Source: the human T2T-CHM13v2.0 reference genome, Homo sapiens. Taken from it: a stretch of 64,000 bases of DNA. The DNA is taken from NCBI RefSeq assembly GCF_009914755.1, contig NC_060926.1, one strand, 5' to 3'. Position numbers and translations under genes: made by a program. Positions 10,271 through 56,923 of the stretch are shown piece after piece (position 1 is the first letter of the stretch; each line of letters opens with the position of its first letter). Below the pieces are notes generated by a model. It had not been told where the DNA came from. It ran no database searches and worked only from the letters and a program-made list of their open reading frames with translations.

Positions 10271-12636
10271 CTAATTCTAAAATTTTATCATTCCACTGAC
10301 TCCCCAATTCATTTTATTCCACCTATACACTAAAAAAATTACATAAGAAATGTAATATAGGTTTTATGTTTTAATAAAGTTTTCATAGTTTCACACTTGT
10401 TTTTAGGGCCTGGAAACTCAGAGATGTGCTAGGAGCCTTTTCTTTTTCATTATAAGCTTTATTGTGCTATTTGACCTTTTAATCTATGTTATTTTTAGTC
10501 TATATGTTATTCTAATAAAAATTTTAAAAAATCAAGTTTCATAAACTTGTTCCTGACAGAATACATGTGTTTCTCCATATTCAATCCTACTGATTCATAT
10601 AGTTTTTTCCGATACTTTAATGGGAAAATTTTCAAACGTATAGCAAAGTTCAAAGAGGCTTACAGCGAACACCCATACACCCACCACCTAGAGTCTCCTC
10701 CAAGCATTTATTCTACTTCCTTTATCAAGTATCTGCTTCTGTTAGAGAATTGATTAGATGAGTGTGATCCTTGATTAGAGGTCTTTTATGAATTCCTTCT
10801 TTTTTGGTTTGTTTTCTTAATTTGCATCAAGTTTTATTGCTGTTTCATTTAGCTCTGCGTGACTAAGATTCCTTTAATTGTGTGTATGTGCATGTGTATG
10901 TGTGTATACACACATCTTCACAACCAAAGTTTCCAGGTGTTTACACCAAAGTGGCCAGTTACCACTATTGGATTAACTATTATGTGGGAGGGTCTCTTAT
11001 ATCTCAGCACAATGTATAAAATTGTAATCTTTTTTTCTGTTCTCCTCTCAGGAGTTCCAGGTTAATTTAAATGAAACAATGCATAATTAATACTTCTCTA
11101 GGAAACAACAACCAAGCAGATTTTATTGGATATTTTTTAAGGCATCTACAAAGTTTATGCTACATTTGAATCTTGCTGTATAACCCTCAAATATTTTACT
11201 CAAGTATAAAATAAGCATTATTTTAATATATACCTATATTTTCCCAATAAATCATATGCCTAAAGCCTATCCCATTCAGTTATTCTGGTCTCCAGAAATA
11301 ATTGCCTGTTGACTTTATTGGTTTTGTCTTTACCTCTTTTCCTTCTCATTTATGTTTTTTAAACATTAATTTTAATCATAGCCTTTTTGTGAATAAGAGA
11401 TTTATTATGTATCCTTTATTCGTTGAAACTTGAATCAGTTTTCCCTGTGTTGTCTGGTTCATACCCATTTCTTATCACTGAAACTCTCCAGTCTCTTACC
11501 TCTTTTCTTTCTAGGGACTGCTCTGTAATATGTTATTACTGGTTTAAAGCAGCCCTCCTGACCACTATCCTTTGTGGGGGTTTTTTTTTCCCCCATTCCA
11601 CGTCTGTCTCTTAGGTCTGCCCTCTTTTTGATTTTTATAGTGGACCCAGACGTTTTCTTCTCTTAGGCTTTAGTAATTCATTCAGATCACTAATGTCTTG
11701 AGTGTAATTATGTGCCAAGCATTATTGAGCTATCAAGATGCCTCCACCATATTCCTATTCTGCTCAACTTGGATTCTTAGTGCCTCCTGAACACATTATG
11801 GCCATTCCCAACCAGAACCTGTGCCCTGGTTTGCAATGCCTTTCTCACCCATTCCTCCCTGTTTCATTCTTAACCAGTATCCTTCAGCACCTAGCTGCTT
11901 TGAGCTTTTGCTGAACTTAATGGGTACATTGAAAATGTGAAGTTTCTTTATATCAAGGTAATTTTATTTTAAGTTCCAGGGTACATGTGCAGGGTATGCA
12001 GGTTTGTTACATAGGAAAATGTGTGCCATGGTGGTTTGCTGCACCTATCAACCCATCACCTAAGTATTAAGCCCAGCATGCATTAGCTGTATTTCCTGAT
12101 GCTTTCCCCCACTCCCACCCACGGCAGGCCCCAGTGTGTGTTCTGTGTTGTTCCCCTAACTATGTCCATATGTTCTCGTTGTTCACCTCCCACTTACAAG
12201 TGAGAACATGTAGTGTTTTCTGTTCCCGGGTTAGTTTGTTGAGGATAATGGCTTCCAGCTGTATCCATGTCCCTGCAAAGGACATGATCTCACTCCTGTT
12301 GATGACAACATAGTATTCCATGGTGTATATGTACCACATTTTCTTTAGTCTGTCATTGATGGGAATTTAGGCTGATTCTGTGTCTTTGCTATTGTGACTA
12401 GTGCTGCAGTAAATACATGCGTGCATGTATCTTTCTTTATAATAGAATGATTTATGTTCCATTGGGTATATACCGAGTAGTGGGATTGCTGGGTCAAATG
12501 GCATTTCTGATTCTAGGTCTTTGAGGAATCGCCACACTGCCTTCCACAGTGGTTGAACTAATTTACATTCCCACCAACAATGTAAAAGCATTCCTCTCGC
12601 TCCACAGCCTTGCCAGCATCTGTTGTTTCATGACTT

Positions 12637-14172
12637 TTAAATAATTGCCATTTGGACTGGTGTGAGATGGTATCTCATTGTGGTTTTGATTTGCATTTCT
12701 CTGATGATCAGTGATGTTGAGCTTTTTTTCATAAGTTTATTAGCCATATAAATGTCTTCTTTTGAGAAGAGTCTGTTCATGTCCCTTGCCCACTTTTTTA
12801 ATGGGGTTGTTTTTTTTTTCTTGTAAATTTGTTTAAGTTTCTTGTTGACTCTGAGTATTAGACCTTTGTCAGATGGATAGATTGCAAAAATTTTCTCCCT
12901 TTCTGTAGAATGTCTGTTTGCTCTGATGATAGTTTCTTTTCCTGTGCTGAAGCCCTTTAGTTTAATCAGATCCCATTTGTCAATTTTTGCTTTGGTTGCA
13001 ATTGCTTTTGTCATCTTCATCATGAAATCTTTGCCCATGCTTATGTCCTGAATGGTATTGCCTAGATTTTTTTCTAGGGTTTTTATAGTTTTGGGTTTTT
13101 CATTTAAGTCTTTAATCCATCTTGAGTTAATTTTTGCATAAGGTGTAAGGAAGGGGTCCAGTTTCAGTTTTCTGCATATGGCTAGCCAGTTCTCCCAGCA
13201 CCATTTATTAAATAGGGAATCCTTTCCCCATTGCTTGTTTTTGTCAGGTTTGTCAAAGATCAGATGGCTGTAGTTGCACGGACTTATTTCTGAGTTCTCT
13301 ATTCTGTTCCATTGGTCTATGTGTCTGTTTTTGTAACAGTACCATGCTATTTTGGTTACTGTAGCCCTGTAGTATAGTTTGAAGTCAGGTAATGTGATGC
13401 CTCCAGCTGTGTTCTTTTTGCTTAAGATTGTCTTGGCTATATGGGCTTTTTGTTGGTTCCATATGAATTTTAAAAGAGTTTTTTCTAATTCTATGAAGAA
13501 TGTCAACGGCAGTTTAATGGGAATAGCATTGAATCTGTAAATTGCTTTGGGCAGTATGGCCAATTTCACGATATTGATTCTTCCAATCCATGAGCATGGA
13601 GTGTTTTTCCATTTGTTTGTGTCCTCTCTGATTTCCTTGAGCAGTGATTTGTAGTTCTCCTTGAAGTGATCCTTTACTTCCCTCGCTAGCTGTATTCCTA
13701 GGTATTTTATTCTCTTTGTATCAGTTGTGAATGGGAATTCATTTATGATTTGGCTCTCTGCTTGTCTATTGTTGGTGTATAGGAATGCTTGTGACTTTTG
13801 CACATTGATTTTGCATCCTGAGACTTTGCTGAAGTTGCTTATCAGCTTAAGAAGCTTTTGGGCTGAGGCAGTGGGATTTTCTAGATACAGGATCATGTCA
13901 TCTGCAAACAAAGACAATTTGGCTTCCTCTCTTCCTATGTAGATACCCTTTGTTTCTTTCTCTTGCTTGATTGCCTTGGCCAGAACTTCCATTACTAGGC
14001 TGAATAGGAGTGGTGAGAGAGGGCATCCTTGTTTATGCTGGTTTTTCAAGGGGAATGCTTCCAGCTTTTGCCCATTCAGTGTAATCCTGGCTGTGAGTTT
14101 GTCATAAACAGCTATTATTAATATTTTGAGGTACGTTCCTTCAGTGTCTAGTTTATTGAGAGTTTTGAACAT
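12637..14172 (-). pseudogene. L1 ORF2 remnant (RT C-half to start of C-terminal domain), 511 open codons
   Basis: [10 protein letters not shown] and [13 protein letters not shown] motifs; frameshifted upstream and stopped downstream, so non-autonomous. Confidence 0.9.
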
Positions 14173-14352: not shown

Positions 14353-15289
14353 TCAGTTTGCCAGTATTTTATTGAGGATTTCTGCATCGATATTCATCAG
14401 GGATATTGGCCTGAAGTTTTCTTTTTTTGATATATCTCTGCCAGGTTTTGGTATCAGGATAATACTGACCTCATAAAATGAGTTAGGGAGGGGTCCCTCC
14501 TTTTCGTTTGTTTGGAATAGTTTTGGAAGAAATGGTACCAGCTCCTTTTTGTATCTCTGGTAGAATTCGGCTGTAAATCTGTCTGGTCCTGGGCTTTTTT
14601 TGGTTGGTAGGTTATTTATTACTGCCTCAATTTCAGAACTCGTTATTGGTCTATTCAGGCATTCAACTTCTTCCTGGTTCAGTCTTGGGAGGGTGTATGT
14701 GTCCAAGAATTTATCCATTTCTTCTAGATTTTCTTTTTTTTTTTTTTTATTTGCAGAGGTGTTTATAGTATTCTCTGATGGTCGTTTGTATTTCAGTGGG
14801 GTCAGTGGTGATATCCCCTTATCATTTTGTATTGCGTCTATTTGATTCTTCTCTTTTTTCTTCTTGATTAGTCTAGCTAGCAGTCTATTTTATTAACTTT
14901 TTCAAAAAACCAGCTTGTGGATTCATTGATTTGTTTTTATTTTTGAAGTGTTTTTCATATCTCTGTGTCCTTCACTTCTGCTCTGATCTTGGCTATTTCT
15001 TGTCTTCTGCTAGCTTTGGAGTGTGTTTGCTCTTGGTTCTCTAGTTCTTTTAGTTGTGATGTTAGGATGTCAATTTGAGATCTTTCTAGCTTAGTGTGGG
15101 CATTTAGTGCTATAAATTTCCCTCTTAACACTGCTTTAGCTGTGTTCGAGATTCCAGTACATTATCTCTTTGTTCTTATTGATTTCAAAGAACTTCTTGA
15201 TTTCTGCCTTAATTTCATTATTTACCTAGGAGTCATTCAGGAGCAAGTTGTTCAATTTCCATGTAGTTGTATGATTTTGAGTGAGTTTC

Positions 15290-15600
15290 TTTTTTTTTTT
15301 CTTTTCTTTTTTGTTTGAGATAGATAGAGTCTCACTCTGGGTCCAGGCTAGAGTGCAGTGGCGTGATCTCGGCTCACTGCAACCTCCGCCTCCCGGTTCA
15401 AGTTATTCTCCTGCCTCAGCCTCCCAAGTAGCTGGGAATACAGACATGCACCAGCATGCCAGGCTAATTTTTGTATTTTTAGTAGAGATGGGGTTTCACC
15501 ATGTTCGCCAGGCTGGTCTCAAACTCCTGACCTCAAGTGATCCGCCCACCTCAGCCTCCTAAAGTGCTGGGATTCCGGACATGAGCCACTGCACCCGGCC
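15290..15600 (-). mobile_element. AluS (Sx/Sz-like) inserted in the L1PA
   Basis: Reverse-complement full Alu; TSD core TGAGTTTC on both sides. Confidence 0.9.
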
Positions 15601-16506: not shown

Positions 16507-16894
16507 AGAAGAAAAGAAAAAGAAAGAAACTCACTCAAAACCATACAACTACATGGAAATTGAACAACTAACTTGCTCCTGAATGACTCCTGGGTAAATA
16601 ATGAAATTAAGGCAGAAATCAAGAAGTTCTTTGAAGTCAATAAGAACAAAGAGATAATGTACTAGAATCTTGAACACAGCTAAAGCAGTGTTAAGAGGGA
16701 AATTTATAGCACTAAATGCTCACATTAAGCTAGAAAGATCTCAAATTGACATCCTAACATCACAACTAAAAGAACTAGAGAACCAAGAGCAAACAAACTC
16801 CAAAGCTAGCAGAAGACAAGAAATAGCCAAGATCAGAGTTGAAGTGAAAGACACAGAGATATGAAAAACAAACACTTCAAAAATAAAAACAAAT
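16507..16894 (+). repeat. Inverted locally templated copy of 14929-~15308 inserted in the L1PA
   Basis: Reverse complement of 14929-15308 including part of the Alu tail; ~11 substitutions and two 4-bp indels by eye. Confidence 0.9.
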
Positions 16895-22097: not shown

Positions 22098-22349
22098 CAG
22101 TGGTCCCCAACCTTTTTGGCACCAGGCACTGGTTTTGTGGAAGACCATTTGTCCACGGCTCGGGGAGGGAGTGGGGGGATGGTTTCGGAATGAAACTGTT
22201 CCACCTCAGATCATCAGGCATTAGTTAGATTCTCATAAGGAGCGCGCAACCTAGATCCCTCACTTGCACAGTTCACAGGAGGGTTCTTGCTACCATGAGA
22301 ATCTAATGCTCCCCACTCCCCACTCTGTTGATCAGGCAGGAGGCAGAGC
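22098..22349 (+). mobile_element. MER1B hAT element, right end deleted
   Basis: cagtggtccccaacctttttggcaccagg...gaaactgttccacctcagatcatcaggcattag; stops at ggaggcagagc with no right TIR. Confidence 0.85.
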
Positions 22350-22520
22350 GAGGGAAGTAAAGGACCACTTCAAGGAGAACTACAAATCACTGCTCAAGGA
22401 AATCAGAGAGGACACAAACAAATGGAAAAACACTCCATGCTCATGGATTGGAAGAATCAATATCGTGAAATTGGCCATACTGCCCAAAGCAATTTACAGA
22501 TTCAATGCTATTCCCATTAA
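22336..22520 (+). CDS. LCLAT1: Candidate alternative terminal coding exon of LCLAT1 ([10 protein letters not shown]...LQIQCYSH*)
   Basis: Branch CTAAT (22303-22307), pyrimidine tract, CAG ending at 22335. Read in phase 1 like the canonical last exon, it gives 61 codons to TAA at 22518-22520. AATAAA at 22823 and 23287. The implied 308-aa length matches my unverified recollection of a curated short isoform. Confidence 0.65.
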
Positions 22521-23483
22521 ACTGCCGTTGACATTCTTCATAGAATTAGAAAAAACTCTTAAAATTCATATGGAACCAACAAAAAGCCCATATAGCCAAG
22601 ACAATCTTAAGCAAAAAGAACACAGCTGGAGGCATCACATTACCTGACTTCAAACTATACTACAGGGCTACAGTAACCAAAATAGCATGGTACTGTTACA
22701 AAAACAGACACATAGACCAATGGAACAGAATAGAGAACTCAGAAATAAGTCCGTGCAACTACAGCCATCTGATCTTTGACAAACCTGACAAAAACAAGCA
22801 ATGGGGAAAGGATTCCCTATTTAATAAATGGTGCTGGGAGAACTGGCTAGCCATATGCAGAAAACTGAAACTGGACCCCTTCCTTACACCTTATGCAAAA
22901 ATTAACTCAAGATGGATTAAAGACTTAAATGAAAAACCCAAAACTATAAAAACCCTAGAAAAAAATCTAGGCAATACCATTCAGGACATAAGCATGGGCA
23001 AAGATTTCATGATGAAGATGACAAAAGCAATTGCAACCAAAGCAAAAATTGACAAATGGGATCTGATTAAACTAAAGGGCTTCTGCACAGGAAAAGAAAC
23101 TATCATCAGAGCAAACAGACATTCTACAGAAAGGGAGAAAATTTTTGCAATCTATCCATCTGACAAAGGTCTAATATTCAGAGTCAACAAGAAACTAAAA
23201 CAAATTTACAAGAAAAAACAACCCCATTAAAAAAGTGGGCAAGGGACATGAACAGACACTTCTCAAAAGAAGACATTTATATGGCTAATAAACTTATGAA
23301 AAAAAGCTCAACATCACTGATCATCAGAGAAATGCAAATCAAAACCACAATGAGATACCATCTCACACCAGTCCAAATGGCAATTATTTAAAAGTCATGA
23401 AACAACAGATGCTGGCAAGGCTGTGGAGCGAGAGGAATGCTTTTACATTGTTGGTGGGAATGTATATTAGTTCAACCATTGTG
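22347..23483 (+). repeat. Inverted ~99% identical copy of L1PA segment 12545-13687
   Basis: By-eye alignment gives 7 substitutions and 2 small indels in ~1140 bp. ORF-track peptides ([12 protein letters not shown]..., [12 protein letters not shown]...) recur in the 511-aa ORF. No TSD or poly(A). Confidence 0.95.
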
Positions 23484-23655
23484 TAGCTGGGACTACAGGC
23501 GTCCACTACCACGCCCGGCTAATTTTTTTGTATTTTTAGTAGAGACAGGGTTTCACCATGTTAGCCAGGATGGTCTCGATCTCCTGACCTCATGATCCAC
23601 CCGCCTCAGCTTCCCAAAGTGCTGGGATTACAGGCATGAGCCACCGCGCCCAGCC
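23483..23655 (-). mobile_element. AluY-like, 3' part and tail deleted
   Basis: gtagctgggactacaggc...ttagccaggatggtctcgatctcc...cccagcc; begins abruptly at the L1-copy junction. Confidence 0.88.
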
Positions 23656-24164
23656 AAGGAAATATCTTTATAGATGTCTTCTTGTGTACCTGTGTAAGAA
23701 TTCCTTTGGGATATACAGTCATGCAACACATAATGACGTTCTAGTTAGTGGCAAACCACATATATGATGGCAGTCTCATAAGATCATAATGGAGCTAGAA
23801 AATTCCTATCACCTGGTGACATCATCACATGTTTGTGATGATGCTGATGTAAACCACTATGCTACCAGTTGTGTAAAACAGTAGCACATAAAATTATATA
23901 CCGTAATGATAATGACTATGTTACTGATTTACATAGTTACTGTACTATACTTTTTATTGTTACTTGAGTGTATTCCTTCTGCTTATAGTAAAAGCAGTAA
24001 AACAGCCCCAGGCAGGTCCTTCAGGAGGTATTCCAGAAGAAGGCATTGCTGTCATAGGACATGACAGCTCCATGCTTGTTATTACCTCTGAAGACCTTGC
24101 AGTGAGACAAGATGTGGAGGTGAAGACAGTGATATTGATGATCCTGACCCTGTGTAGGCCTAGG

Positions 24165-24165
<1 letters not shown>

Positions 24166-24204
<39 letters not shown>
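24166..24204. repeat. (TG)~19 microsatellite
   Basis: Direct reading. Confidence 0.95.
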
Positions 24205-24205
<1 letters not shown>

Positions 24206-24357
24206 TTAATTTTTAACAGTTTTTTTTAAAAAAGTTTTTATAATTAAAGGTTATGGAATCAGGATAGAAAGAAAGTCTTTTTGTACAACTTTACAATAGG
24301 TTTGTGTTTTAAGCGAAGTGTTATAAAAGAGTCAAGTTTTAAACATTTAGAAGTTTA

Positions 24358-24619
24358 CTCACACCTGTAATCCCAGCACTTTGGGAACCCGAGGCAGGTG
24401 GATCACCTGAGGTCGGGAGTTCAAGACTAGCCTGGCCAACAAGTTGAAACCTTGTCTCTTCTAAAAATACAAATATTAGCTGGGCGTGGTGGCAGGTGCC
24501 TCTATTCCCATCTACTTGGGAGGCTGAGGCAGGAGAATAGCTTGAACCTGGGAGGCGGATGTTGCTTGCACTCCAGCCTGGGTGACAGAGTGAGACTCCA
24601 TCTCAAAAAAAAAAAAAAA
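24358..24619 (+). mobile_element. AluS with 5' trimming and right-arm deletion
   Basis: ctcacacctgtaatcccagcac...ggaggcggatgttgcttgcactccagcc...A tail. Confidence 0.88.
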
Positions 24620-25128
24620 TTTATAAGTTTAGAGTAAAAAAGTTACAGTAAGCTAAGGTTAATTTATTATTGATGAAAGTTTTTTAATAAATTTAGTGTA
24701 GCCTAAGTGTACAGTGTTTATTAAAGTCTACAGTAGTGTACAGTGGTGTCCTAGGCCTTCACATTCACTCACCCTCACTCACTGACTCACCCAGAGCAAC
24801 TTCCAGTCCTGCAGACTCCATTCATGGTAAGTGCCCTGTAGAGGTATACTATTTTTTATCTTTTATACTGTATTTTTACCATACCTTTTCTATGTTTAGA
24901 CACACAAATACTTAGCATTATGTTACAATTGCCAACAATATTCAGTACAGTAACATGCTGTACAGGTTTGTAGCCTAGGAGCAACAGGCCATACCATATA
25001 GCCTAGGTGGGTCATAGACTATATACTGTCTAGGTTTGTGTGAGTATGCTCTATGATGTTCCCATGACAAAAAAATTGCCTAAAGACACATCTCTCAGAA
25101 CATATCCCCGTCAAGTGACACATAGTTG

Positions 25129-25860
25129 TATGTCCAAGAGTAGAACTGCTGAGTCATAGGGTTTGGTAACCTTAATTTGACCAGCCCCAAATTATACTAC
25201 ATAATAGATACTCCCCTCTAAACACCCACTGGCAATGCACAAGGGTGCCTGTTTCCTCTCATTCCTGTGAACACTTGGTATTATCCAGCTTTCTACTCTT
25301 TGCCAGTCAAATAGGTATATTTTAATTTGGTTTTGTCTGATTACAAAGGATTTTCACATGCCTGATATTTTCTGGGTTTCCTCATCTATTCATTGCCTGT
25401 TTATATCTTGTCTGTGTTTCTATTGGGATTACTATAGTGACTTGTTAATTCGCACTAGTTCTTATGTTCTAGATATAATCCCTTGTTGAATTTTAGACAT
25501 TGCAGGTATGTTCTATTTTATTACATATTCATTGAACAGAAATTCCTGGTGTAATCAAATTAAGAAGTTTTTATCTTACGACCTATGCTCTTGAAGTCTG
25601 GTTTTTAAAAACCTTTCTTGTTACTTGGTCTCCATTTTCTTTTGTTAATTGTATAATTATGTTTTACATTTCAGCTTTATCCATCTGGAGTCCCTTACAT
25701 GTGTTGTTTGGTGTGAGGATCTGGTTTTATTTTTCTCCAACAGTGTGTACTTAATCTGTTATTCTCCATTGATTTGTGATGTTACCTTTATCATATATTA
25801 AGTCCCCATATATTCATGAGAATGGCTTTGAACTCTATTCTGATACTTGTTTTTCCACAA
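25129..25860 (-). mobile_element. Ancient L1M fragment (continues at 23656-23715 across the Tigger)
   Basis: gagtagaactgctgagtcatagg...aacacttggtattatc...ccatctggag resemble old L1 3' sequence. Confidence 0.55.
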
Positions 25861-28800
25861 CCACTTGATTCTTTTAGAATGTATTTTCCATAGTGAAGAC
25901 CCAGTTTCTTCTAAATCTCAAGGAACTAGTTTATGCATGTGTTATACCAGGATAGCCTTTTTGTGTGCATAACTGTTTAGGCATTTCAGCCCACAGTGAT
26001 CCTGTCCTCCTTTGAACTCATAGTGTTCATTCTCTACTACACTCACCTCACTTCTCTTAAAATTTTCTATTAACTTGTATTCGTTTCCTGTGTTATTACT
26101 TAACTTTTCACATATTTATATGTTGTACTTCAACTAGATTATAAACTTCTAAAAGGCAAGGATTGCTTCCATGTCTTTAAATCTCCCATGGTAGCTGTAG
26201 CTAGCACAGGACTTAAAATCATTATCATAAGCATGATTTAGTGAGCAATTATTAAACTCTTTATTGATACTTTTGATGTGATGAATGCATGTCTTAACAT
26301 AATTTTAAGCACATAAAGGCAATGACCGATTTTTGAAGGATATAGGACAAATATGCAGTTTCTACATGTACAAATTGAACATAGCCATACCCCCTGCATT
26401 TTTCTAATAACTAGACTTTGTCACATATTACTTCCTCTATTTCTTAAAAGGTTTTAGTTTACTAATTTTTTCGTTCCTTCTTTAGTAATTGCATTTTTTT
26501 TTTTAGGTTTCCTTAATAAACCCTGTGAAAAGCAATGTGCTAAATAAATTATATGCAGGGCAAAGCAATACATTATAATTAGGCATTCCATTATTGAATT
26601 GATGCCTCTGGCTTCTCATGGTCTCTGTCTAATCCTGAAACAAATTCTTTTTGTGGACAAATATTAGCCTATAATAATTATTCATCTAAGCTAACGCTTT
26701 TCATTAAATCTCCTTCTGATTAAGATAGCTCCATAAGTACAGACTGATTTAATTTAACATGATTTATCCACTTGTGTATCAAGGTCTGGTGGAAATTGTT
26801 TTTAACACCAGAGGATTGTGAATATTAAGATCATCTTTATATTAACAGATCTCTCAGGTATTTAAGACCTTGTTGTTTGAATAGTTATATAAGCCTAGGT
26901 CTGATGTCACTCTGCTAAATTCAAGAGTATCACAAGTGCTGTAACAGGCTGTCATTAAAAACAATATGGATTCTGTTTTATATTATAATGTTGGAGCTTA
27001 GAGTTAGTACATTCTTGTGTTACTTGGGTTTGGGAATCAATTTTCATTCCAGCTGGTTGGTCCAACACATTTAATGTCTTTTCTGTTTTACCAGAAGTTC
27101 AGTGTTATTAAAAACAAGTAAATCATAGATATATATTCTGAATTAAGGGTCTCCACGGACATGAATATAACTTTTTAAAAAATTTCTTGGACTTAACTGT
27201 TATTATTTCCTCACCTGTTACCATCCTTGTGCTTTTCTTCAGTTTTTTTAATGCTGGCTATGTAATAGATACCAAACACTGAGTTTAATTTTGTTTTTTT
27301 TTCACTTCTTCCTTGATCATCTTTCCCCCAATATTCCTCCCTTAATTTGTTAAATTCTGGCTTCACCACTGCTCTTCTACTTTTAGCTTTTTTTTTTTTT
27401 TCCTATCAGTAGTCAACAGACTCATTAGCATTTTTCTTCTGGCCTTTTTGTCCATTTTTTTTCTTTTTGGTCCTTTTATAGTCTTTCCTGCTTCATTATA
27501 TATGCATGAGAAAGTTTGCATTGCTCTATGTGAACATGATAAAGCTACATGAATTAATTCTATGAAACCAAAGCATATATTCTAATTTGCTGCAACCAAA
27601 AATTCTTGAAAATAAACTATATAATGTCCTAATTATAATTTAGCTCCAGTTTTAGGAAATCCCAGAGAACAGAGAGTGTGTGTGTATACACTCACACTTT
27701 CAGTTGAGGGTGAAAGAGAGTGCCATGAAAGCAAAAGGAAAGGCATTCTAGCATGTGGAACTTTCTGAGGTCCCATTTCCAGCCGTATCCTCTTTATTTT
27801 CAGGTTTCTAAGAGTTGTTAACTGTTCTTTCTCTCTCCCCCTGACTCTGCTCTGCCCCATGTGTGCTGTTCTCAGAAGACAGTGGTGTGTATGGTAGGAC
27901 CCTGAGTCAGTAGGCTGAAGACTTACAGAAAGAAGGTACCTTGGAGTCAGGACTGGAAGCTGAGGGATAACAGGCCAAGTCAGGCTGAGATTCTTAACTG
28001 GTCTGGGCTCTGGGCATAGCAGCAAAGAAGAGCTTACTTCATCTGGGTCAGCTGAGGGAAGTGGTTCATGAACCGCTTAGCAGACCACTTGAACTAATAG
28101 GAGGAGGATGACGCAGAACTCAAGTGAAGTACTGTGGTCATTTGCAGAAGAGTTTCTCCTGGGAGGAGGTCAGAGTAGAAATGGGCGTATCATGCCCATA
28201 AGGCAGCAATTACTGTTTTCAGAGCCGTGTCTGCACTGATGGAAATGCCAGCTCTGTGAAATTTTTTTCAAGCTGGTGGGACTCCCATGTGTCCTGTGGA
28301 TAGAAAGAAAAAAAATAGCACAGTAGAAAATGAAGCTTTCTTTTCTGTGAGGAAAAGACTTTCTGTGAGGAGGTTGGTGGTTCTATTTAAAGACACAGTC
28401 TTGAGAGTTGATTAGGAAACAAGTACTTCTACAGTAATACCTTAATTAATGAAGAGGCTATATTCGGGAATGTTTAATGAAGTTTCTGTTGTTATCAGAG
28501 AGAAAATGAAGCAAGCACAGGGGATTGCATTCCAGAATGTCAGGAAAGAATTTCAGTTTAAAAACAACACTGTATGTTTAACATCGTCAAATATGCCATA
28601 ACTAAAGAGTATTTATATCACGGTTTGAAGGGAGAGGGAGAGAGGAGCATATCAAACTAACATAAGCTCCTTAAACCTATAAAAGGCACCTATCATCATT
28701 GAAGAGGTCTCTAGCTTCCTGTCCTTGTGGCGCCCTGTGCCTATTCAGATGTTGGTCATTTAGTGCTGTTGACCTACTGTTAACACCACATACATGTGAC

Positions 28801-29775
28801 CTTGACTTCCCAGTATATCCTCTGAAACATTATTATCTCAGCTTGCCTGACAACTCATGAAGAACCCCAGTGCTTTAACAATAATATAGTGATTGCACAG
28901 ATTGCAAGTAGCAGAACTACAGAGTATCTAAGGCTTGGCAAAGAATGTCTCATGTCCAGAACAGAAGCACAAATTCCTGTCTGCCTTCTCTGCTATGGTC
29001 TGAGGGATCATTAATCACAATTACTTTCCAGCGACAGTCTCTCATAATGCACCTTTCTACTGCAGGCTGTTAGGGAAGGCTCTATTCTTAGGCTCTCTGC
29101 CAAGAAGTACCCCAGAGACAGAAGCTCAGCTCAGTTTCCCCTTTTCTGCTTATTCAATTTATATATTTCCTGAGCTCACTGAAGCAGCACAGGAATACAC
29201 CAATGAATAAAATAAACAAAAATTTAGACAATAAGTACGTAAAATTTATAGTATGTCAGATGATGGGGCTTACAGAGAAAATAAATCAAGGAAGAGGGAA
29301 GACTGAAGTAGGGTAGTCAGGGCTCCCCTGAAAAGAGGAATTTGGGGGAAGAGGATCCCTAGTAGAAGGAACAATAACGTGCCTGAGATGAGAATGTGCC
29401 TAGTGTGTTCAAAGAAGAACAAGAGATGCAGTGTGGCTAGACCAGATCAAGTCACATGAGCAGTAGCAGAGAATGAGGGCAGAAAGGTAAATGTTTGCCA
29501 GATAGGCCACCATGGGAGTTTGGTGTTCTCTCTGAGATGGGCAGCCACTGGGGAGAAGGGGTGAAGGGGGAGGGGTTATAAGATTGTGACTGACATTATT
29601 AAAGGATTACTCTGGCTGTAATGTTAAGAAAAATCTGTAGGTCGGGCAGGTGGGCAAACAGAGAAACCAATTAGAAAGTTATTTGTAATAATGCAGGAAA
29701 GAGAAGTGGAGAGTGAGGTAAAATTAGTGAGGTTGCAAAAAATGGCTGGATTCTAGATACATTTTAAGGTGGAAG

Positions 29776-30743
29776 TGTAGGGGTGGGTTGCCCCTACACA
29801 CCTGTGGGTGTTTCTCGTAAGGTGGGACGAGAGATTTGGAAAAGAAAAAGACACAGAGACAAAGTATAGAGAAAGAAATAAGGGGAACCGGGGAACCAGC
29901 GTTCAGCATATGGAGGATCCCGCCAGCCTCTGAGTTCCCCTAGTATTTATTCATCATCTGTGGGTGTTTCTCGAAGAGGGGGATGTGTCAGGGTCACAAG
30001 ACAATTGTGGGGAGAGGGTCAGCAGACAAACATGTGAACAAAGGTCTTTGCATCATAGACAATGTAAAGGATTAAGTGCTGTGCTTTTAGATATGCATAC
30101 ACATAAACATCTCAATGCTTTACAAAGCAGTATTGCTGCCCACAGGTCCCACCTCCAGCCCTAAGGCGGTTTTTCCCTATCTCAGTAGATGGAGCATACA
30201 ATCGGGTTTTATACCGAGACATTCCATTGCCCAGGGACGGGCAGGAGACAGATGCCTTCCTCTTGTCTCAACTGCAAGAGGCATTCCTTCCTCTTTTACT
30301 AATCCTCCTCAGCACAGACCCTTTACGGGTGTCGGGCTGGGGGACGGTCAGGTCTTTCCCTTCCCACGAGGCCATATTTCAGACTATCACATGGGGAGAA
30401 ACCTTGGACAATACCTGGCTTTCCTAGGCAGAGGTCCCTGCGGCCTTCCGCAGTTTTTGTGTCCCTGGGTACTTGAGATTAGGGAGTGGTGATGACTCTT
30501 AAGGAGCATGCTGCCTTCAAGCATCTGTTTAACAAAGCACATCTTGCACCGCCCTTAATCCATTTAACTCTGAGTTGACACAGCACACGTTTCAGAGAGC
30601 ACGGGGTTGGGGGTAAGGTTATAGATTAACAGAATCTCAAGGCAGAAGAATTTTTCTTAGTACATAACAAAATGGAGTCTCCTATGTCTACTTCTTTCTA
30701 CACAGACACAGTAACAATCTGATCTCTCTTGCTTTTCCCCACA
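29776..30743 (-). mobile_element. HERV-K(HML-2) LTR5_Hs solo LTR, full length 968 bp
   Basis: Reverse complement begins tgtggggaaaagcaagagagatcag and ends acccacccctaca; perfect 6-bp TSD TGGAAG at 29770-29775 and 30744-30749. Confidence 0.96.
30046..30213 (-). promoter_or_regulatory. LTR5_Hs promoter/enhancer core: TATAAAA (30207-30213) and octamer-like ATGCAAAG (30046-30053)
   Basis: Motifs read directly on the minus strand; LTR poly(A) signal AATAAA at 29946-29951 (minus). Confidence 0.7.
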
Positions 30744-33329
30744 TGGAAGCAATAGGATTTTTTGATGGGTCGGGTGTGGAGTATAAGAAAATGAGAGGGA
30801 ACTAGTGTGACTGCAAGGTTCTTGGCCTCAACTGAAGGAAAGGCAGTTTTGCCTTTTAACTGCAACAAAGACTGTGGTAAGTACAGGTTTTGGGGGAAAG
30901 GCCAAAAAGCAGTTCCATTTAAGCCATGTTAAGTTTGAGCTACTTATTAGATATCCATAGGGAGTTATGAAATTAGTAAATATGTGAGTCTAGAAAGGAG
31001 AGAGGCAGGAGATACACATTTGGTAGGCATGACCACATATGATATTTAAAGCTGCAAGACTGAAAGAGATCACCTAAGGAATGAGTGTGGATGGAGAAGA
31101 GTAAGATCCCAGCCTAGTTAATAGTAGGCAGTACAATATTAGGGATCGGAGAACCAGGCCATCCACAAAGAAGACTTCAGAGTGGCCTGTGAAGTTGGGG
31201 AAAAGCCAAGAGAGTAAGGTGACCAGGAAGCCAAGAGGGAGGGAGGCATTGGATTTGGTACATAAAGGTCACCGAGGACAGTTCTGGTGGAATGATGAGG
31301 GCAGAAGCTTCATTGGCATGGGTTCGAGAGAGAAATGAAAGAGGATTGAAGACAGTGAGTATAGACAGCTCAGGAAGTTTAGCTGTGTAAGTGAACACAG
31401 AGATGAGTGGTCACTAGAAGGAGAGGTGAGCCAAGAGGGAATGATGGGAGAAGTTATAATATGTTGATGGTCAAGATAGAATGACTGATTAAAGGGGAAT
31501 TGCTGGGGCTCTGTTCCTGAGTAGGCAAGAGCAGGTGAGATAGAAGACATAGGTGGAGGGATTGGCCCTAAATACATGCGTGGACAGATCCTCCTTATGA
31601 AAAAAAGAAGGCAAAGTGTATGAACTCACACAGTAGTAGGAGAGTATATAGGGTGGTACGAGTTGTGCAAATTTCTTTTGATTGATTTTCTCAGTGAAAT
31701 AGGATGAGAATGAAGGATAGTGAGGAAGTTATTGGAAGTTTTTGAGAAAAGCAAAGTCATGAAGTCCTCAAATCCAAGCAACTGGGACACAGAATGGACT
31801 AAGGAAATATGTATGTTGAGCAGTACTAAGGAGCTGCTTTTGGCCAGTGATCAGGAATTTACCAAGGACTCCCACTAGCCTTCATTCCCTGCCGAAAAAC
31901 TTAAATACTTCCACCAAAACTTGTGCCTAATAGGCTCAAATAAGTTTCTGGGAGAAAAGAGACACCACATATCAAAAAGTCTTTCTCCATAAGACTTATG
32001 TAAATGTGTAAAGTGAAAGGAAATAAAGCCTTAGGAACTGGGCATTCAAATCTAGTTTGGCTTATGCACTTTGAGTCTGTGGTAAGGAATTTATCTGGGA
32101 AAGGTACATTATATACTGCAAAAAACACATCAAGAGTACTAAATCAGATTACTTGCCGGTTACGTCTTCAGACTGATTGAATGATCAAGACTTATGACAT
32201 CTATTCACATTGGAGTATAATCAGTGAATTGATCAGCTTGTGTAAGGGATTGAAATGAGACCCTTCCCTACCTTGGAAATGGGTAGAGGGCACTAGACAG
32301 AGGGAGAGTTGTGGTCTCCACTGAGTTAGTCTTCACAGTTTACCCAGGCCAGTTTCATCTATAAGAACTGTGCATGTGTAATTAGAAGCTACTCAAAGGT
32401 GATTTTGACACAAGCTGTCACACCATGTGCACAGCTGATAGGGAATGTTGCTGTTGAATTGCAATGGTAAGTGAACGGTTTTTTTGTTGTTGTATTTTGG
32501 TTGCTGGTGGAGGGAGTACTTAGCAGGAGAAAGTTGAAATGGATGTTTAAACCAGTTTCCAAATGTGTTGAGTTTCTGAATCATAGTATTGATTAAAAGC
32601 AAAAATACATCCTTCAAATCTGAATCAAACAGATTAGATGCCATACTGTCATTGTAATATTTGCTCTGAGTTTTACAGGAGGAATTGAAGGGTGCAAGAG
32701 TGTGTGTATGTGTTTGTTTTGTTTGATACACCTAAGCCCTGCTACTACTGTAGTAATCTAATAAATTAGAGCTATATGCTTCTAAAATATTGATTGCAAG
32801 ACACATTGTCACTTTTCTTCTAATATTTTTATTGTTTTCTCTGTGAATTCTAATTGAACTATTTGTAACTGCTTCAGAAATATGTTGATGTAACCTTTTT
32901 CCTTTCTAGATAGTAGCAAGAAAACATGGTAGTTATTATTTGTGACCCTGAAGGAAATTAACGTCCTAGAAATTTTTAAATGTCAGCTTGCACTTAAAGT
33001 GATCCCTTAATTAGGGAATTATATCTTGCATTAACCAGGAAAGGAAAAAGGATGCAAAATAACAATGAAAAGCTTGTCGGATATGTTAATGCTTATTTGA
33101 ATGAATAGGAAAAGATCCTGTTTCAAATAAAATGCTAATACCAAAAAAAAAAAATTGAAATCATACATGTGAATAAATTTGTTTCAAACTCTAAATAATG
33201 TTTTCTAACATTTTGGTTTGACAAGAATCCACGCAGCCTTTTAGAAAGCTCTGTTTAGACTATAGCACATATTACAGATTTGTGATATCACTTAAATTTT
33301 TTTAGGGGAAATATTTGAGACGCCTTAAA

Positions 33330-35240
33330 AAAACAGCTTTTAGAGGTAGAATTTACTTGCTGTAAAATGTACTCATTTTAAGTGTACAGTTAGATGTGTT
33401 TTATTAAATGTATAGAGCCACATATCTACCCACAGTCAAAATATGAAACATGTCCATCACCCCCAAAGGTTTTCTATGTACCTCTGCAGTCAGGCCCCTT
33501 CCCTGAACGTTGGTCCCTGGAACCCACTGATGTGCTTTCTGTCACCATAGTTTTGCCTTTTCTAGATTTTCATATAAATGGAATTATATAGTATGTGGTC
33601 ATCTGTGTCTGGTTTAAGTTAGAATAATGCTGTTAAGTTTCATCCATATTGCTGCATGAATCTGTAGTTTATTCCTTTTTATTGCTGATTGGTATTGCAT
33701 TGTGTGGAATATGCCACAATTTCTTTAACCATTCATGGACTGATAGACACCTGCGTTATTTACAATTTTAGGATACTATGTATAAAATTGCTACAGACAT
33801 TTTTGTATTAATACAAGAATTTGTATGGGCATATATTTTCTTGGGCACATACCTATGCTGTCATTCTCTGGTTTTCCAGAGTGTGTAGACTGTTTTACAT
33901 GTCCATTAGTATTATTTGAGGGTTCCAGTTGTTCACCATCCTGACCAAAACCTGATATTGTTAGCCTTTTTAACCTAGCCATTCTAGTAAATGTATATTA
34001 GAATCTTATTGTGGTTTTGGTTTATGTTTCCCTAATAGTAACTAAAGTGTTAATTTAAGCATCTTTTCCTGGGCTTATTTGTCTTTCATATACCTTCACT
34101 GGTGATATGTTAATTCCAATTTTTTATCCAATTTAAAACATTGGGTTGCTTTATTATGGGCTTGCAAGAATGTTTTATATATCTTAGATACAAGTTATTT
34201 ATAATATATTTGGTTTGCAAACATTATCTTCCAATCTGTGGCTTGCATTTTTATTTCCTTAATACTGTCTTATGAAGAGTAGATGTGTTTAATTTTGACA
34301 AAGTACAGTTTTTCAGTTTATGATTTGTGCTCTTCAATGTCCTATGTAAGAAACTGTTGCCTAGTCCAGGTCACAAAGATTTTCTGTGTTCATCTGTTTC
34401 TAGACTCTGTTCTGTTTCATTGATCTGTATGTCTAACTCTCCTCCAGTACAATATTGTCTCGATTACTGAACCTTTATAGTAAGTCCTGAAATGAGCAGC
34501 TAATGCCAAGCCTCCATCTTTTTCTTTTTCAAAATTGTTTTCTTATTCTAGTTCCTTTGCACATCTATATAAAACTTAGAATCAGTTTGTTAATTTATAC
34601 ACAGAAGCAGACTAGTTTTTATTAGGATTACTTTGAATCTGTAGAGCATTTTAGAGAAATGTAATCTTAATAATATTGAATTTTCCAGTCTATGAACATA
34701 GTATATCTCCCATTTATATGGGTCTTTCTCTCAGTCATGTTTTATAGTTTGCATTCTTGCACATATTTTATAAAATTTACAAGTGTTTCATAACTTTGAT
34801 ATTGTAAATGGTGTTTTTAAAATTTCAGTGTTCCAAAGAAGGAAACAGCAGACACTGCGGTCTACTTGACAAGGGAGGGTGGGAGGAGGGAGAAGAGATA
34901 ACTATTGGGTACTGGACTTAATAACTGGGTGATGAAATAATATGTACAACAAACCCTCATGACGTATGTTTACCTATGTAACAAACCTTCACATGTATAC
35001 CCAAAGCTAAAAGTTAAAAAAAATAAAATTTCAGTGTTCAGTTATTCATTACTAGTATCCAGAAATAGATTTAATAATGAACTTGTATCCTGTAACCTTG
35101 CTAAATCTACTTACCAGTTCTAGTAGTTTTGTAGACCCCTAAGGATTCTCTACATCATAGTTTGTGAATAAAGAGTTTTACTTTTCCTTTTTAATCTGTA
35201 TGCCCTTTTTTGTTTTTGCCTTATTGCAGTGATTAGAATC
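33330..35240 (-). mobile_element. Old L1M (MC/MD/ME-type) 3' fragment
   Basis: cattttaagtgtacagtt...ttttgccttttctagattttcatataaatggaat...ttgtatcctgtaaccttgctaaa. Confidence 0.75.
34834..35023 (+). mobile_element. Short L1PA15/16-like 3' end with perfect TSD
   Basis: ctgggtgatgaaataat...tttacctatgtaacaaacc; TSD TAAAATTTCAGTGTTC at 34818-34833 and 35024-35039. Confidence 0.88.
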
Positions 35241-36536
35241 TCTAGTGCCAGGTGTCTGGTAACAAGTGCTATCATGTAGATGGTAACAAGTCTGGTAACA
35301 AGTGCTATAGTAGAGCTATATGGCTTCTTAATGTTATTTTAGACATGAGGAATTTAGAAGACCAAGAATAGTACACCTAATGACTTGGGTAATTTTTCAA
35401 ACACATCTTCCTACGTAATCCCTGGTTGAGCATCTCTGCCCTAGTGAGCTGCTAGGAGTAGGAAAAAGGTTGAGAACCACTGGTTTTGATTATACATTAA
35501 CCTTGTATCTTTATATACTACTTATAGACACTAGAACTAGATAAAAATTTCGCTAGTAATTACAGCCCTAGCTGAGTGAATACTGGTGTTGAAAAGATGG
35601 TAATATGAAACTTACTTCCCCACATGGCTCTAACACCAAAACCATAGCATTCTCTTTTGGATTCAGGCTCCAGACCACCAGATCTGCTTTCCAGCTCACC
35701 CTGGCATTAGTCAGTAAACCTCTATAAGGTATCTGCATTCCTTGCCACCTTCACTTTCCATCTTATCCCACCAATAAAGGTTTTTACAAATATGAAACTT
35801 TACAAGATATTCTAGTGCTAATAAAAAAGATACTTTACTCATGCACCTATTTTTAAAAGAATTTCTGGTTGTTTTCCTTGTGAATAAAGGATTGGGATTA
35901 ACTGAAAAACTGGGCTGAATTAGAGGTCAGGAAGGCCACTATTCAACCCAGCCCAGGTAAATAACTTTGTCATTAATAAGCTGAGCATGCCAAATGCAGC
36001 AAGAATTCATTTTGAGTGGTAAACTTAGAAGCCACGAGGATCTTCAGGCAAAATTGCAGTATTGGCAGAGCTTATCTTTGCCTTCTTCCCTTTAAGTTTT
36101 TCCCCCCAATCCTTAGTCATTTCGTGTCCCAGAGTTATCCAGAATCATATCTAGCAAGATTTATCTCCCAGGTTCCAAAGTGGGAATAAACTATTTTCAA
36201 TGCCCTAAACAAATCTCCTGCTATATGAGCACAAGTTATGGTAGTTAACTGTTATTACTGAGTAATTCACTCTGTCCTGTAAGTTAAAATTGTTGTTGCC
36301 TTAAATAAATTTTAAAATAATTTTAATAGGCAACATTCGTTGATCACTTACTAAGGATAATCTCAATTAATCCTCCCCAAGGTTATGTATGTTTCTCAGG
36401 GCCATACATCAGCAAGGAGTGGAATTAAGCAAAAAAACCTAGGGTTTTATCTGATTCCAGAACCCAGCTCTTGAATACAACTTCCCATGGTCCTCTCTGC
36501 TTAGAACTATCCCCATAACCCAGTATTTATTTCCCC

Positions 36537-36711
36537 AGTGTGGCCTTTCCAGCCCCTGTATGTGATCATCATCTCTTGGAGTGCTTGCTAAAATACAGTT
36601 TGCCTCATCCCAGCCGTGTGAACTAAGGGAGAGTCTTTGGGAATGAAGCCCAGAACTCTTCATTTTCAATTCCCCAAGTATTCTTAGGCTACTAGAGTTT
36701 GAGAACTACTG
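36537..36711. mobile_element. MER5-like hAT MITE
   Basis: cagtg...tgcttgctaaaatacag...agtttgagaactactg. Confidence 0.6.
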
Positions 36712-37020
36712 TCATATAGCCTCTCTTCCTCAACTAAGGAACAGATCTCTGTAGTTTGTAGTAACTGCTGTAAAATGGCAGCTCCATAGGAACCTATTTT
36801 CCATAGGAACCTGCAGTTCACCTGTTCAGACAGATTTAGAAAATTAGAAGTCTCCATTTTGCATATAGCTATTTATAATAGTTGGGTGATCATGCTTCCT
36901 TCTTCTCAAAATATGCCACTTTATAATTCAAAACTGCAATAAAACTTTAGAAGAAATTTCCTTCCTCAAAAATCAAGACTACGAAAAAAGCAATCCTTGT
37001 CATTAGATATTTCTTAATAC

Positions 37021-37426
37021 TGTATTAGTTTTCTAGACTGCCATAAAATATTACCACAAACTTCGTGGCTTAAAACAATAAAAAATTCGTTTTCTTATAG
37101 TTCTGGAGACTAGAAATTCAAAATTAAGATGCTGACAGGTCCACAAACCCCTCCCATGGCTCTAGGGGAGAATCCTTCCTTGCCTTTTCCAGCTTCTAGC
37201 AACTCCTGGGATACTTTAGCTTGTCACTGCATAACTCCAACCTTTGCCTCTGTCTTCACCATATTTCTATATGTAAAGGCTTTTTTTGGATTTAGAAGAC
37301 ACCTGAATCCACGATGATCTCATCTCAATCCTTATCTTAAATCTGCTATGATCCTATTTCCAAGTAAGGTTACATTCTGAAGTTCCGGTGGCCAGGTATC
37401 TTGATAGGACACTATTCAACCCACTG
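37021..37426 (-). mobile_element. MLT1 (C-like) MaLR LTR
   Basis: tgtattagttttctag...gtggcttaaaacaa...gacactattcaacccact. Confidence 0.8.
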
Positions 37427-37566
37427 AAAGTCCTTATTTACCCCTCATGTATTGTTATTCTCCCTGCTTAAATTTTAGGATCAGTAACTACTCATCCAGA
37501 TGTTGACTCTCATGTTCTAATTGAATTTAAACAAAAAGTTACTACTACAATGAATGTTTTGATGTT

Positions 37567-37720: not shown

Positions 37721-37722
37721 AT

Positions 37723-41715
<3,993 letters not shown>

Positions 41716-56420: not shown

Positions 56421-56923
56421 GTAAGAACCTTGATGCTGTCCATGATATCACTGTGGCGTATCCTCACAACATTCCTCAATCAGAGAAGCACCTCCTCCAA
56501 GGAGACTTTCCCAGGGAAATCCACTTTCACGTCCACCGGTATCCAATAGACACCCTCCCCACATCCAAGGAGGACCTTCAACTCTGGTGCCACAAACGGT
56601 GGGAAGAGAAAGAAGAGAGGCTGCGTTCCTTCTATCAAGGGGAGAAGAATTTTTATTTTACCGGACAGAGTGTCATTCCACCTTGCAAGTCTGAACTCAG
56701 GGTCCTTGTGGTCAAATTGCTCTCTATACTGTATTGGACCCTGTTCAGCCCTGCAATGTGCCTACTCATATATTTGTACAGTCTTGTTAAGTGGTATTTT
56801 ATAATCACCATTGTAATCTTTGTGCTGCAAGAGAGAATATTTGGTGGACTGGAGATCATAGAACTTGCATGTTACCGACTTTTACACAAACAGCCACATT
56901 TAAATTCAAAGAAAAATGAGTAA
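56421..56923 (+). CDS. LCLAT1: LCLAT1 terminal coding exon (C-terminal 167 aa of lysocardiolipin acyltransferase 1)
   Basis: GKNLDAVHDITVAYPHNIPQ...LNSKKNE* is recognised as the human LCLAT1 C-terminus: acyltransferase C-terminal region, hydrophobic TM stretch, KKXX motif. The ORF-track start at 56396 is intronic; the exon is phase 1. Confidence 0.96.

What the first reader, a model, noticed from the sequence alone, without database searches (positions are those of the whole stretch)
22298..23300. A chimeric MER1B / inverted-L1 alternative last exon that would truncate LCLAT1
Seen: CTAAT branch motif (A at 22306), pyrimidine tract ctccccactccccactctgtt (itself a micro-duplication), and GATCAG|G at 22335/22336. 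Read in the same phase 1 as the canonical last exon, this gives [61 protein letters not shown] in an off-frame reading of L1 ORF2. AATAAA follows at 22823 and 23287. All but the first ~4 codons, the stop and the poly(A) signals come from the young inverted duplication. Knowledge: sense-oriented L1 carries premature poly(A) signals. Recalled but unverified: a 414-aa main isoform and a 308-aa short isoform; 247+61=308. Inference: a recent rearrangement built a lineage-restricted intronic-polyadenylation isoform lacking the DITVAY segment, the C-terminal TM helices and the KKXX signal. It would probably be inactive or mislocalised and reduce full-length output.
Basis: partly seen in the sequence, partly recalled or inferred. 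Interest (0 to 1): 0.8.

Follow-up and report, generated by a model that had tools for sequence, protein, structure and literature searches.

The report
Annotated transposon-built short LCLAT1 last exon
This is a real but already catalogued alternative last exon of the lipid-remodelling gene LCLAT1, built from two transposon fragments, that replaces the enzyme's C-terminal 40% with 61 unrelated residues and is shared at least by humans and bonobos.

Summary
22336 is also the start of an exon of another RefSeq transcript in the hub table.

I located LCLAT1 exon 5 upstream of the window. It ends one base into a codon (G), so the phase is right and the junction reads ...LREG|RRQSEG.

A 308-aa 'LCLAT1 isoform X3 [Pan paniscus]' in public databases is 247 aa plus this tail, 60 of 61 identical. 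The isoform is therefore already known and predates the human-bonobo split.

Origin:
- The branch site, pyrimidine tract, AG and first 11-14 nt lie in an old MER1-type element. A 13-nt insertion and a T-to-A change seen in 0 of 29 other copies made the acceptor.
- The rest is a 1.14-kb sense L1 ORF2 piece. It is an inverted DNA copy, 7 mismatches and 2 indels, of 12545-13687 inside a longer L1.

The short protein keeps all four acyltransferase motifs. It loses Acyltransf_C, both C-terminal membrane helices and KKNE.

Expression level, 3' end and function were not testable here. Interest is low.

The parts
22098..22349 (+). It supplies the branch site, pyrimidine tract, AG and first 11-14 nt of the exon.
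   Evidence: 39 other genomic copies scored, at 79-86% identity; alignment with 29 of them shows family homology running through ...CAGGAGGCAGAGC (about 22349). After that the other copies continue differently.
22303..22307 (+). CTAAT branch-point-like motif (A at 22306), 29 nt upstream of the AG.
   Evidence: The motif is ancestral to the transposon family (TCTAATG is shared by most of the 29 copies).
22309..22333 (+). Pyrimidine tract, including a local 13-nt insertion (about 22313-22325; tandem CTCCCCA CTCCCCA).
   Evidence: 77% pyrimidine at -25..-4; 0 of 29 other family copies carry the 13-nt insertion (one has 2 extra nt).
22334..22335 (+). AG of the 3' splice site. The exon starts at 22336.
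   Evidence: Hub table: exon of another RefSeq transcript starts at 22336; the other family copies have T where the window has A at 22334 (0 of 29 have AG here).
22336..22520 (+). Coding part of the alternative terminal exon: GC completes Gly248, then 60 codons, then TAA at 22518-22520.
   Evidence: 60 of 61 identical to residues 248-308 of P0121.
22347..23483 (+). Sense L1 ORF2 segment (arm B) read one base off the ORF2 frame by the exon. It has no L1 3' end or poly(A) tail.
   Evidence: the native frame of 22550-23230 matches LINE-1 ORF2p residues 843-1065 of 1275 (8uw3_A, E 2e-113); other genomic L1 copies are only 91-93% identical.
12545..13687 (-). Parent copy (arm A) of the L1 segment, inside a longer minus-strand L1 in the same intron.
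   Evidence: 39 of 39 other scored L1 copies align straight across each arm-A boundary, so arm A is contiguous L1 and arm B is the derived copy.
22516..23292 (+). Candidate poly(A) hexamers downstream of or at the stop: ATTAAA at 22516, 22916, 23066 and 23226; AATAAA at 22823 and 23287.
   Evidence: No 5' splice-site-like sequence with at least 7 of 9 consensus matches lies between 22336 and 24397.
23483..23655 (-). Truncated repeat abutting arm B on the right. By eye it is an antisense Alu lacking its 3' part; the name is recalled.
   Evidence: reference copy of direct-repeat family D3 (4 copies in the window); identity to arm A stops here.
56421..56923 (+). Coding part of the canonical last exon that the alternative exon replaces (DITVAY, Acyltransf_C, two TM helices, KKNE).

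Best explanation
This is an already annotated alternative 3'-terminal exon of LCLAT1, made of two transposon pieces and present at least in human and bonobo.

Shown:
- The donor of exon 5 (phase 1, last base G) can join the AG|G acceptor at 22336.
- That acceptor lies in an old MER1-type fragment. A local 13-nt pyrimidine-rich insertion and a T-to-A change made it.
- Eleven to 14 nt into the exon the sequence becomes a 1.14-kb piece of L1 ORF2 in sense orientation. It was copied at the DNA level, in inverted orientation, from a parent L1 8.7 kb upstream.
- The piece sits between the truncated MER1 fragment and a truncated Alu-like repeat. Microhomology at the junctions is 3 nt on the left and about 1 nt on the right.
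- The reading frame enters ORF2 one base off-frame, runs 60 more codons and stops at 22518-22520.

Inferred:
- Cleavage and polyadenylation follow at one of six A-rich hexamers in the L1, so the exon is terminal and the mRNA escapes nonsense-mediated decay.
- The product is 308 aa from the long start, or 270 aa from the short one. It keeps the N-terminal hydrophobic segments and all four acyltransferase motifs. It lacks the end of the acyltransferase fold, the Acyltransf_C domain, both C-terminal transmembrane helices and the KKNE retrieval signal.
- It is most likely a minor, poorly folding or inactive by-product whose main effect is to divert some pre-mRNA from the full-length form.
For: - Sequence features.
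- The exon start equals an annotated RefSeq exon start (hub table).
- Exon 5 and its phase.
- The 308-aa LCLAT1 isoform X3 of Pan paniscus carries the same junction and tail, 60 of 61 identical.
- Acceptor origin: 0 of 29 other family copies have the 13-nt insertion or the AG.
- L1 identity and frame: (ORF2p residues 843-1065).
- Copy and parent relation: 7 mismatches and 2 indels over about 1137 nt, against 91-93% identity to other L1s. Arm A is contiguous L1 in 39 of 39 comparisons at each boundary. Arm B lacks the ORF2 end, 3' UTR and poly(A) tail.
- No consensus-like donor lies in 22336-24397.
- Domain loss: Pfam finds only PF01553 (profile positions 2-119 of 132) in P0121, against PF01553 plus PF16076 in the full-length relative.
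- Motif and helix positions come from the table in section 6 of PMC8753187.
- Sense L1 ORFs carry 19 poly(A) signals and cause premature polyadenylation, and exonization upstream of L1 needs a cryptic acceptor (passages of PMC3192792).
Against: - I saw no RNA, 3'-end or protein data, so use of the exon in human tissues rests on the hub's RefSeq row alone.
- P0121 is an X-numbered, predicted model.
- The hub gives 'exons of other transcripts 22336-38035'. I could not resolve this into single exons. If one exon really runs to 38035, the 3' end is not in the L1. At 38035 there is neither a GT donor nor a poly(A) hexamer nearby.
- All four catalytic motifs are retained, so inactivity is not demonstrated.
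- The fold model meant to test whether residues after 247 are core was too poor to use (mean pLDDT 51.1).
Confidence: 0.75

Rival explanations
1. The 308-aa isoform is a stable, functional protein with its own role. Examples would be a dominant-negative partner, or an enzyme relocated because the KKXX signal and the C-terminal helices are gone.
For: All four AGPAT motifs and the N-terminal hydrophobic segments are kept. The frame is open and nearly identical in bonobo, 60 of 61.
Against: The tail is an off-frame L1 reading with no Pfam family. The single human-bonobo difference changes the residue (Q/E), and one change cannot show constraint. Only 14 native residues follow motif 4 (residue 233), and the Acyltransf_C domain is lost. 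No paper among those found by six searches describes such an isoform (passages read).
Confidence: 0.1
2. The exon is not terminal in most transcripts. Either it is a poison exon spliced onward, so that the stop triggers nonsense-mediated decay, or it is the start of a long unprocessed read-through reaching about 38035. Either way essentially no protein is made.
For: The hub table gives a span of 22336-38035 for exons of other transcripts. Poly(A) hexamer use was not verified.
Against: No 5' splice-site-like sequence with at least 7 of 9 consensus matches lies in 22336-24397. Six poly(A) hexamers lie within 800 nt of the stop. 38035 has no donor and no hexamer.
Confidence: 0.1
3. The annotated exon is a database artefact, for example a rare mis-spliced clone whose 3' end came from internal priming on A-rich L1 sequence. 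It is not used at biologically meaningful levels.
For: A-rich runs at about 23215-23235 and 23296-23305 could prime oligo-dT. The motif type is not rare: 41 candidate acceptors in the window.
Against: The same junction is modelled independently in bonobo. The acceptor's pyrimidine tract is richer than that of the canonical last exon, 77% against 68%. Internal priming would make only the 3' end false, not the splice junction.
Confidence: 0.05

Closest known systems
L1-associated exonization and cryptic or premature polyadenylation in introns (Kaer et al. 2011, PMC3192792, passages read; the earlier work it cites on sense-strand L1 poly(A) signals is known to me only by recall)
   Same: A sense-oriented L1 ORF2 sequence in an intron, with many A-rich hexamers. 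An upstream cryptic acceptor creates a terminal exon, giving a truncated host transcript.
   Different: The L1 piece here is not a retrotransposed insertion. It is a 1.14-kb internal ORF2 fragment copied as DNA, inverted, from a neighbouring L1. The acceptor comes from a DNA-transposon fragment improved by a 13-nt insertion and a point change. The exon runs into the L1 instead of ending upstream of it.
Intronic-polyadenylation ('skipped terminal exon') isoforms that encode C-terminally truncated proteins (general class, recalled)
   Same: An alternative 3' splice site plus an in-exon stop and poly(A) signals inside a long intron. The result is loss of C-terminal domains, membrane anchors and sorting signals.
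   Different: Actual cleavage sites and regulation are unknown here. The exon is young (great-ape age or somewhat older) and entirely repeat-derived.
Splice variants of other lysophospholipid acyltransferases, e.g. mouse LPCAT2 variants lacking motif III (PMC4280512, section 5.2, passage read)
   Same: Same enzyme superfamily, with isoforms that lack parts needed for normal function.
   Different: The LCLAT1 short form keeps motifs 1-4. It loses the post-motif-4 fold, Acyltransf_C, the transmembrane helices and KKXX.
Microhomology-mediated templated insertions and inverted duplications (FoSTeS/MMBIR or alternative end joining; class recalled)
   Same: An inverted copy of a template a few kb away. 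The target sequence on both sides is truncated. Short microhomology sits at the junctions (AGC on the left, about 1 nt on the right).
   Different: The pre-insertion allele was not seen, so the mechanism is inferred from the junctions only.

Membership tests
Alternative 3'-terminal exon (intronic polyadenylation isoform) of LCLAT1 | An intronic 3' splice site joined to the constitutive upstream donor | tested here: met
   AG|G at 22335|22336 equals the RefSeq exon start (hub table). The exon 5 donor was found. The junction LREG|RRQ is present in P0121. No RNA reads were seen.
Alternative 3'-terminal exon (intronic polyadenylation isoform) of LCLAT1 | An in-frame stop inside the exon | tested here: met
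   TAA at 22518-22520 in the phase set by exon 5.
Alternative 3'-terminal exon (intronic polyadenylation isoform) of LCLAT1 | Cleavage and polyadenylation within the exon, with no onward splicing | tested here: inconclusive
   Six hexamers lie at 22516-23292 and no good donor lies before 24398. Real 3' ends are not available, and the hub span reaches 38035.
Transposon-derived (exonized) exon | The exon and its splice signals lie in sequences with many dispersed genomic copies | tested here: met
   MER1-type part: 3814 first-look candidates, 39 scored copies at 79-86% identity. L1 part: 4518 candidates and a match to ORF2p.
L1 retrotransposition insertion (for the 22347-23483 piece) | Contains the L1 3' end with a poly(A) tail and target-site duplications | tested here: not met
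   The piece ends inside ORF2 (its last part is still ORF2 coding sequence) and abuts a truncated repeat with no A-tail. It is 99% identical to a neighbour, against 91-93% to other copies.
Microhomology-mediated templated inverted insertion | A nearby inverted template, truncated target flanks and junction microhomology | tested here: met
   The template lies 8.66 kb upstream. The MER1-type element and the right-hand repeat are both truncated at the junctions. Microhomology is AGC at the left junction and about 1 nt at the right.
Microhomology-mediated templated inverted insertion | An empty (pre-insertion) site in outgroup species | not testable with these tools
   No primate genomes are available. 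The only clue is that bonobo has the tail.
Catalytically competent AGPAT/LPLAT acyltransferase (for the 308-aa product) | Motifs 1-4 present | tested here: met
   Motif positions 123-128, 170-176, 201-206 and 233 (PMC8753187 table) all lie before residue 248. NHRTRMD at 122, FPEGTD at 201 and HPRTTG at 232 were found in P0121.
Catalytically competent AGPAT/LPLAT acyltransferase (for the 308-aa product) | Complete acyltransferase fold plus the Acyltransf_C domain, C-terminal membrane helices and ER retrieval signal of LCLAT1 | tested here: not met
   P0121 matches PF01553 only to profile position 119 of 132 and has no PF16076. The helices at 343-365 and 369-387 and KKNE are encoded by the replaced exon.

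The most novel reading that the evidence does not exclude
The parent L1 segment (12545-13687) and its inverted copy (22347-23483) lie in the same intron and are 98.9% complementary over 1.14 kb. In the pre-mRNA they could therefore form a long double-stranded stem starting 12 nt after the alternative acceptor. That stem would bury the alternative exon's body, its stop and all its poly(A) hexamers. Use of the short isoform would then depend on co-transcriptional folding, RNA helicases or A-to-I editing. This would be a built-in structural switch for intronic polyadenylation, created by the same rearrangement that created the exon. The same arms could also mediate a recurrent inversion of the 8.66-kb spacer.
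Probability: 0.1. Interest if true: 0.55.

Novelty: already known. Interest (0 to 1): 0.2.

Why it matters
The exon itself is catalogued, so its practical value is modest.
- It explains where the short LCLAT1 isoform comes from.
- C-terminal reagents cannot see the short form. One example is the antibody against residues 296-324 used in PMC13048267.
- Variants near 22300-22340, or in the L1 hexamers, could shift the ratio of full-length to truncated mRNA for an enzyme implicated in phosphoinositide and cardiolipin remodelling.

The origin story was not found in the papers searched. A DNA-transposon acceptor was sharpened by a 13-nt insertion and then fused to a templated inverted L1 patch. It is a tidy example of how young terminal exons arise, but the kind is known.

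Tried and rejected
- Literature. Five topical searches returned nothing on this isoform or its origin. They were: LCLAT1 with isoform and alternative (45 papers, 20 listed); LCLAT1 with polyadenylation (13); LCLAT1 with transposable element and exon (4); accession numbers (1); and gene aliases with splice-variant terms.
- Passages read do not mention the isoform. PMC6478742 only confirms that NM_001304445 is an LCLAT1 accession. That this accession or a UniProt isoform 3 is the 308-aa human form is my recall, not a result.
- Structure. An AlphaFold2 model of the full-length relative P0001 with a 30-sequence alignment was too poor (mean pLDDT 51.1, pTM 0.46). I did not use it or run fold searches.
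- A PDB sequence search with P0001 found nothing. The profile reached only PlsC 5kym_A, at E 0.0052 over motifs 1-3, which does not cover the region that is lost.
- Pfam on the three native-frame L1 ORFs found nothing. The PDB search then identified ORF2p.
- I could not list the other 9 members of P0121's cluster, so which other species have the isoform is unknown.
- Rejected: that arm B is an independent L1 insertion (see the membership test), and that arm A was copied from arm B.

Full report
**Observation**

- CTAAT lies at 22303-22307 (branch A at 22306).
- A pyrimidine-rich stretch follows, with a tandem CTCCCCA CTCCCCA at 22309-22322.
- No AG lies between the branch A and the AG at 22334-22335.
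- G at 22336 is the first exon base.

Translation from 22335 gives the 61 residues quoted, then TAA at 22518-22520. AATAAA lies at 22823 and 23287. ATTAAA also lies at 22516 (overlapping the stop), 22916, 23066 and 23226.

A crude acceptor filter passes 41 of 4390 plus-strand AGs in the window, 22336 among them. The motif alone is therefore weak evidence. What makes the site real is that the hub's RefSeq table lists 22336 as the start of an exon of another LCLAT1 transcript.

**Phase and upstream exon**

The canonical last exon starts at 56421 after ...CCCAG. Its first two bases complete a codon, and it reads G KNLDAVHDITVAY ... KKNE stop.

To find the upstream exon I searched the window's own genome with Pfam families. 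I then searched with a 379-aa primate LCLAT1 relative, P0001, obtained from a protein search with the canonical exon.

Exon 5 lies at G000:C2:30612379-30612495 and ends ...CTA AGA GAA G|GTAAGC. One G is carried over. With GC from 22336-22337 it makes Gly, followed by RRQSEG...

**Already in databases**

I searched the protein database with the 61-residue tail, restricted to longer proteins.
- It returned one LCLAT1 entry, P0121: 308 aa, named 'lysocardiolipin acyltransferase 1 isoform X3 [Pan paniscus]' in NCBI, UniRef and nr. It represents a cluster of 10 sequences.
- The remaining listed hits bear no LCLAT1 name. Many carry the reverse-transcriptase family PF00078, and I take them to be L1-derived open frames.

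P0121 is 247 residues of LCLAT1 followed by this tail, with 60 of 61 residues identical. So the 308-aa figure is right, the isoform is known, and the exon with its L1 body exists in bonobo.

I could not list the other cluster members. That the human RefSeq NM_001304445 or a UniProt isoform 3 is this form is my recall. only shows that NM_001304445 is an LCLAT1 accession.

**Origin of the acceptor**

The left flank, 22098-22349, belongs to an old dispersed family with copies at 79-86% identity.

I aligned 29 of those copies.
- The branch motif is ancestral.
- 0 of 29 copies have the 13-nt pyrimidine-rich insertion (about 22313-22325).
- 0 of 29 copies have AG at the place of 22334-22335. They have T where the window has A.
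- Family homology runs through ...CAGGAGGCAGAGC, about 22349. The first 11-14 nt of the exon are therefore transposon-derived.

**Origin of the body**

From 22347 to 23483 the sequence is an inverted copy of 12545-13687.
- Identity is 98.9% over 1143 alignment columns, which is 7 mismatches and two homopolymer indels.
- Other genomic L1 copies are only 91-93% identical to it.
- Its native frame matches LINE-1 ORF2p residues 843-1065 of 1275 (8uw3_A, E 2e-113).
- The exon reads this sequence one base off that frame.

Arm A is internal to a continuous L1. At each of its two boundaries, 39 of 39 other scored copies align straight across.

Arm B is flanked by non-L1 sequence and lacks the ORF2 end, 3' UTR and A-tail. 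It is therefore a DNA-level copy of arm A, not a retrotransposition.

The junctions share AGC on the left and about one base on the right. Both flanking repeats are truncated there. This fits a microhomology-mediated templated insertion that replaced the sequence between them. That is an inference, because no empty site was seen.

**Age**

Seven mismatches in about 1137 nt is 0.62%. With recalled great-ape substitution rates this corresponds to roughly 3-6 million years, with wide Poisson error.

Bonobo has the tail, so the event is at least as old as the human-bonobo split. Gene conversion between the arms may have kept them similar. Whether gorilla, orangutan or monkeys have the exon could not be tested.

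**Consequences for the protein**

The table in section 6 of PMC8753187 places the LCLAT1 motifs at 123-128, 170-176, 201-206 and 233. It places the transmembrane helices at 343-365 and 369-387.

The short form keeps all four motifs and the N-terminal hydrophobic segments at 44-72 and 84-107.

What it loses:
- Its Pfam acyltransferase match stops at profile position 119 of 132.
- It has no Acyltransf_C domain.
- It lacks both C-terminal helices and KKNE.
- The tail matches no Pfam family.

Misfolding, inactivity or mislocalisation is plausible but not shown. A fold model meant to test this was unusable (mean pLDDT 51.1).

**Transcript end**

No donor-like site with at least 7 of 9 consensus matches lies between 22336 and 24397. 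Sense L1 ORFs are known to carry many poly(A) signals and to cause premature polyadenylation (PMC3192792). A terminal exon ending in the L1 is therefore the most likely form.

The hub span runs to 38035, where I see neither a donor nor a hexamer. That end remains unexplained.

**Verdict**

The feature is real but already catalogued. Its mechanism, transposon exonization plus L1-borne polyadenylation, is a known kind. Function and abundance are untested.

The one less ordinary aspect is that the exon body is almost perfectly complementary to its parent 8.7 kb upstream in the same intron. That could gate its use through RNA structure or editing. I rate this a low-probability lead.

Noticed in passing
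window 22516-22521: An ATTAAA hexamer overlaps the TAA stop of the alternative exon, so the shortest possible 3' end would leave almost no 3' UTR.
   Followed up: partly
window 12545-13687 and 22347-23483: The two arms are 98.9% complementary over 1.14 kb and sit 8.66 kb apart in one intron. They are a potential long double-stranded RNA in the pre-mRNA (an editing substrate). They are also a potential substrate for recurrent inversion or gene conversion.
   Followed up: no
window 14929-15308 and 16509-16894: A second inverted pair in the same intron, 94% identical over 388 columns. By eye it is L1-like sequence. It is probably two copies of one subfamily and not a recent duplication.
   Followed up: partly
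window 38035: The hub gives 38035 as the far end of exons of other transcripts. No GT follows it, and no AATAAA or ATTAAA lies in the 236 nt before it. The nature of this annotated end is unclear.
   Followed up: partly
P0142 (348 aa, residues 280-333): A predicted marmoset IDO2 isoform X6 contains the same off-frame reading of this L1 ORF2 stretch, 44 of 54 residues identical. This suggests the frame is exonized repeatedly in gene models.
   Followed up: partly
window 56396-56420 versus 22311-22332: The canonical last-exon acceptor has a poorer pyrimidine tract than the alternative one, 68% against 77% at -25..-4. It also fails my crude acceptor filter.
   Followed up: no
PMC6478742, Table 1: The largest methylation difference in that study is assigned to LCLAT1 with accession NM_001304445 (mean beta 0.46 against 0.015). 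The probe position is not given. A sequence or structural polymorphism could produce such a near-binary value.
   Followed up: no
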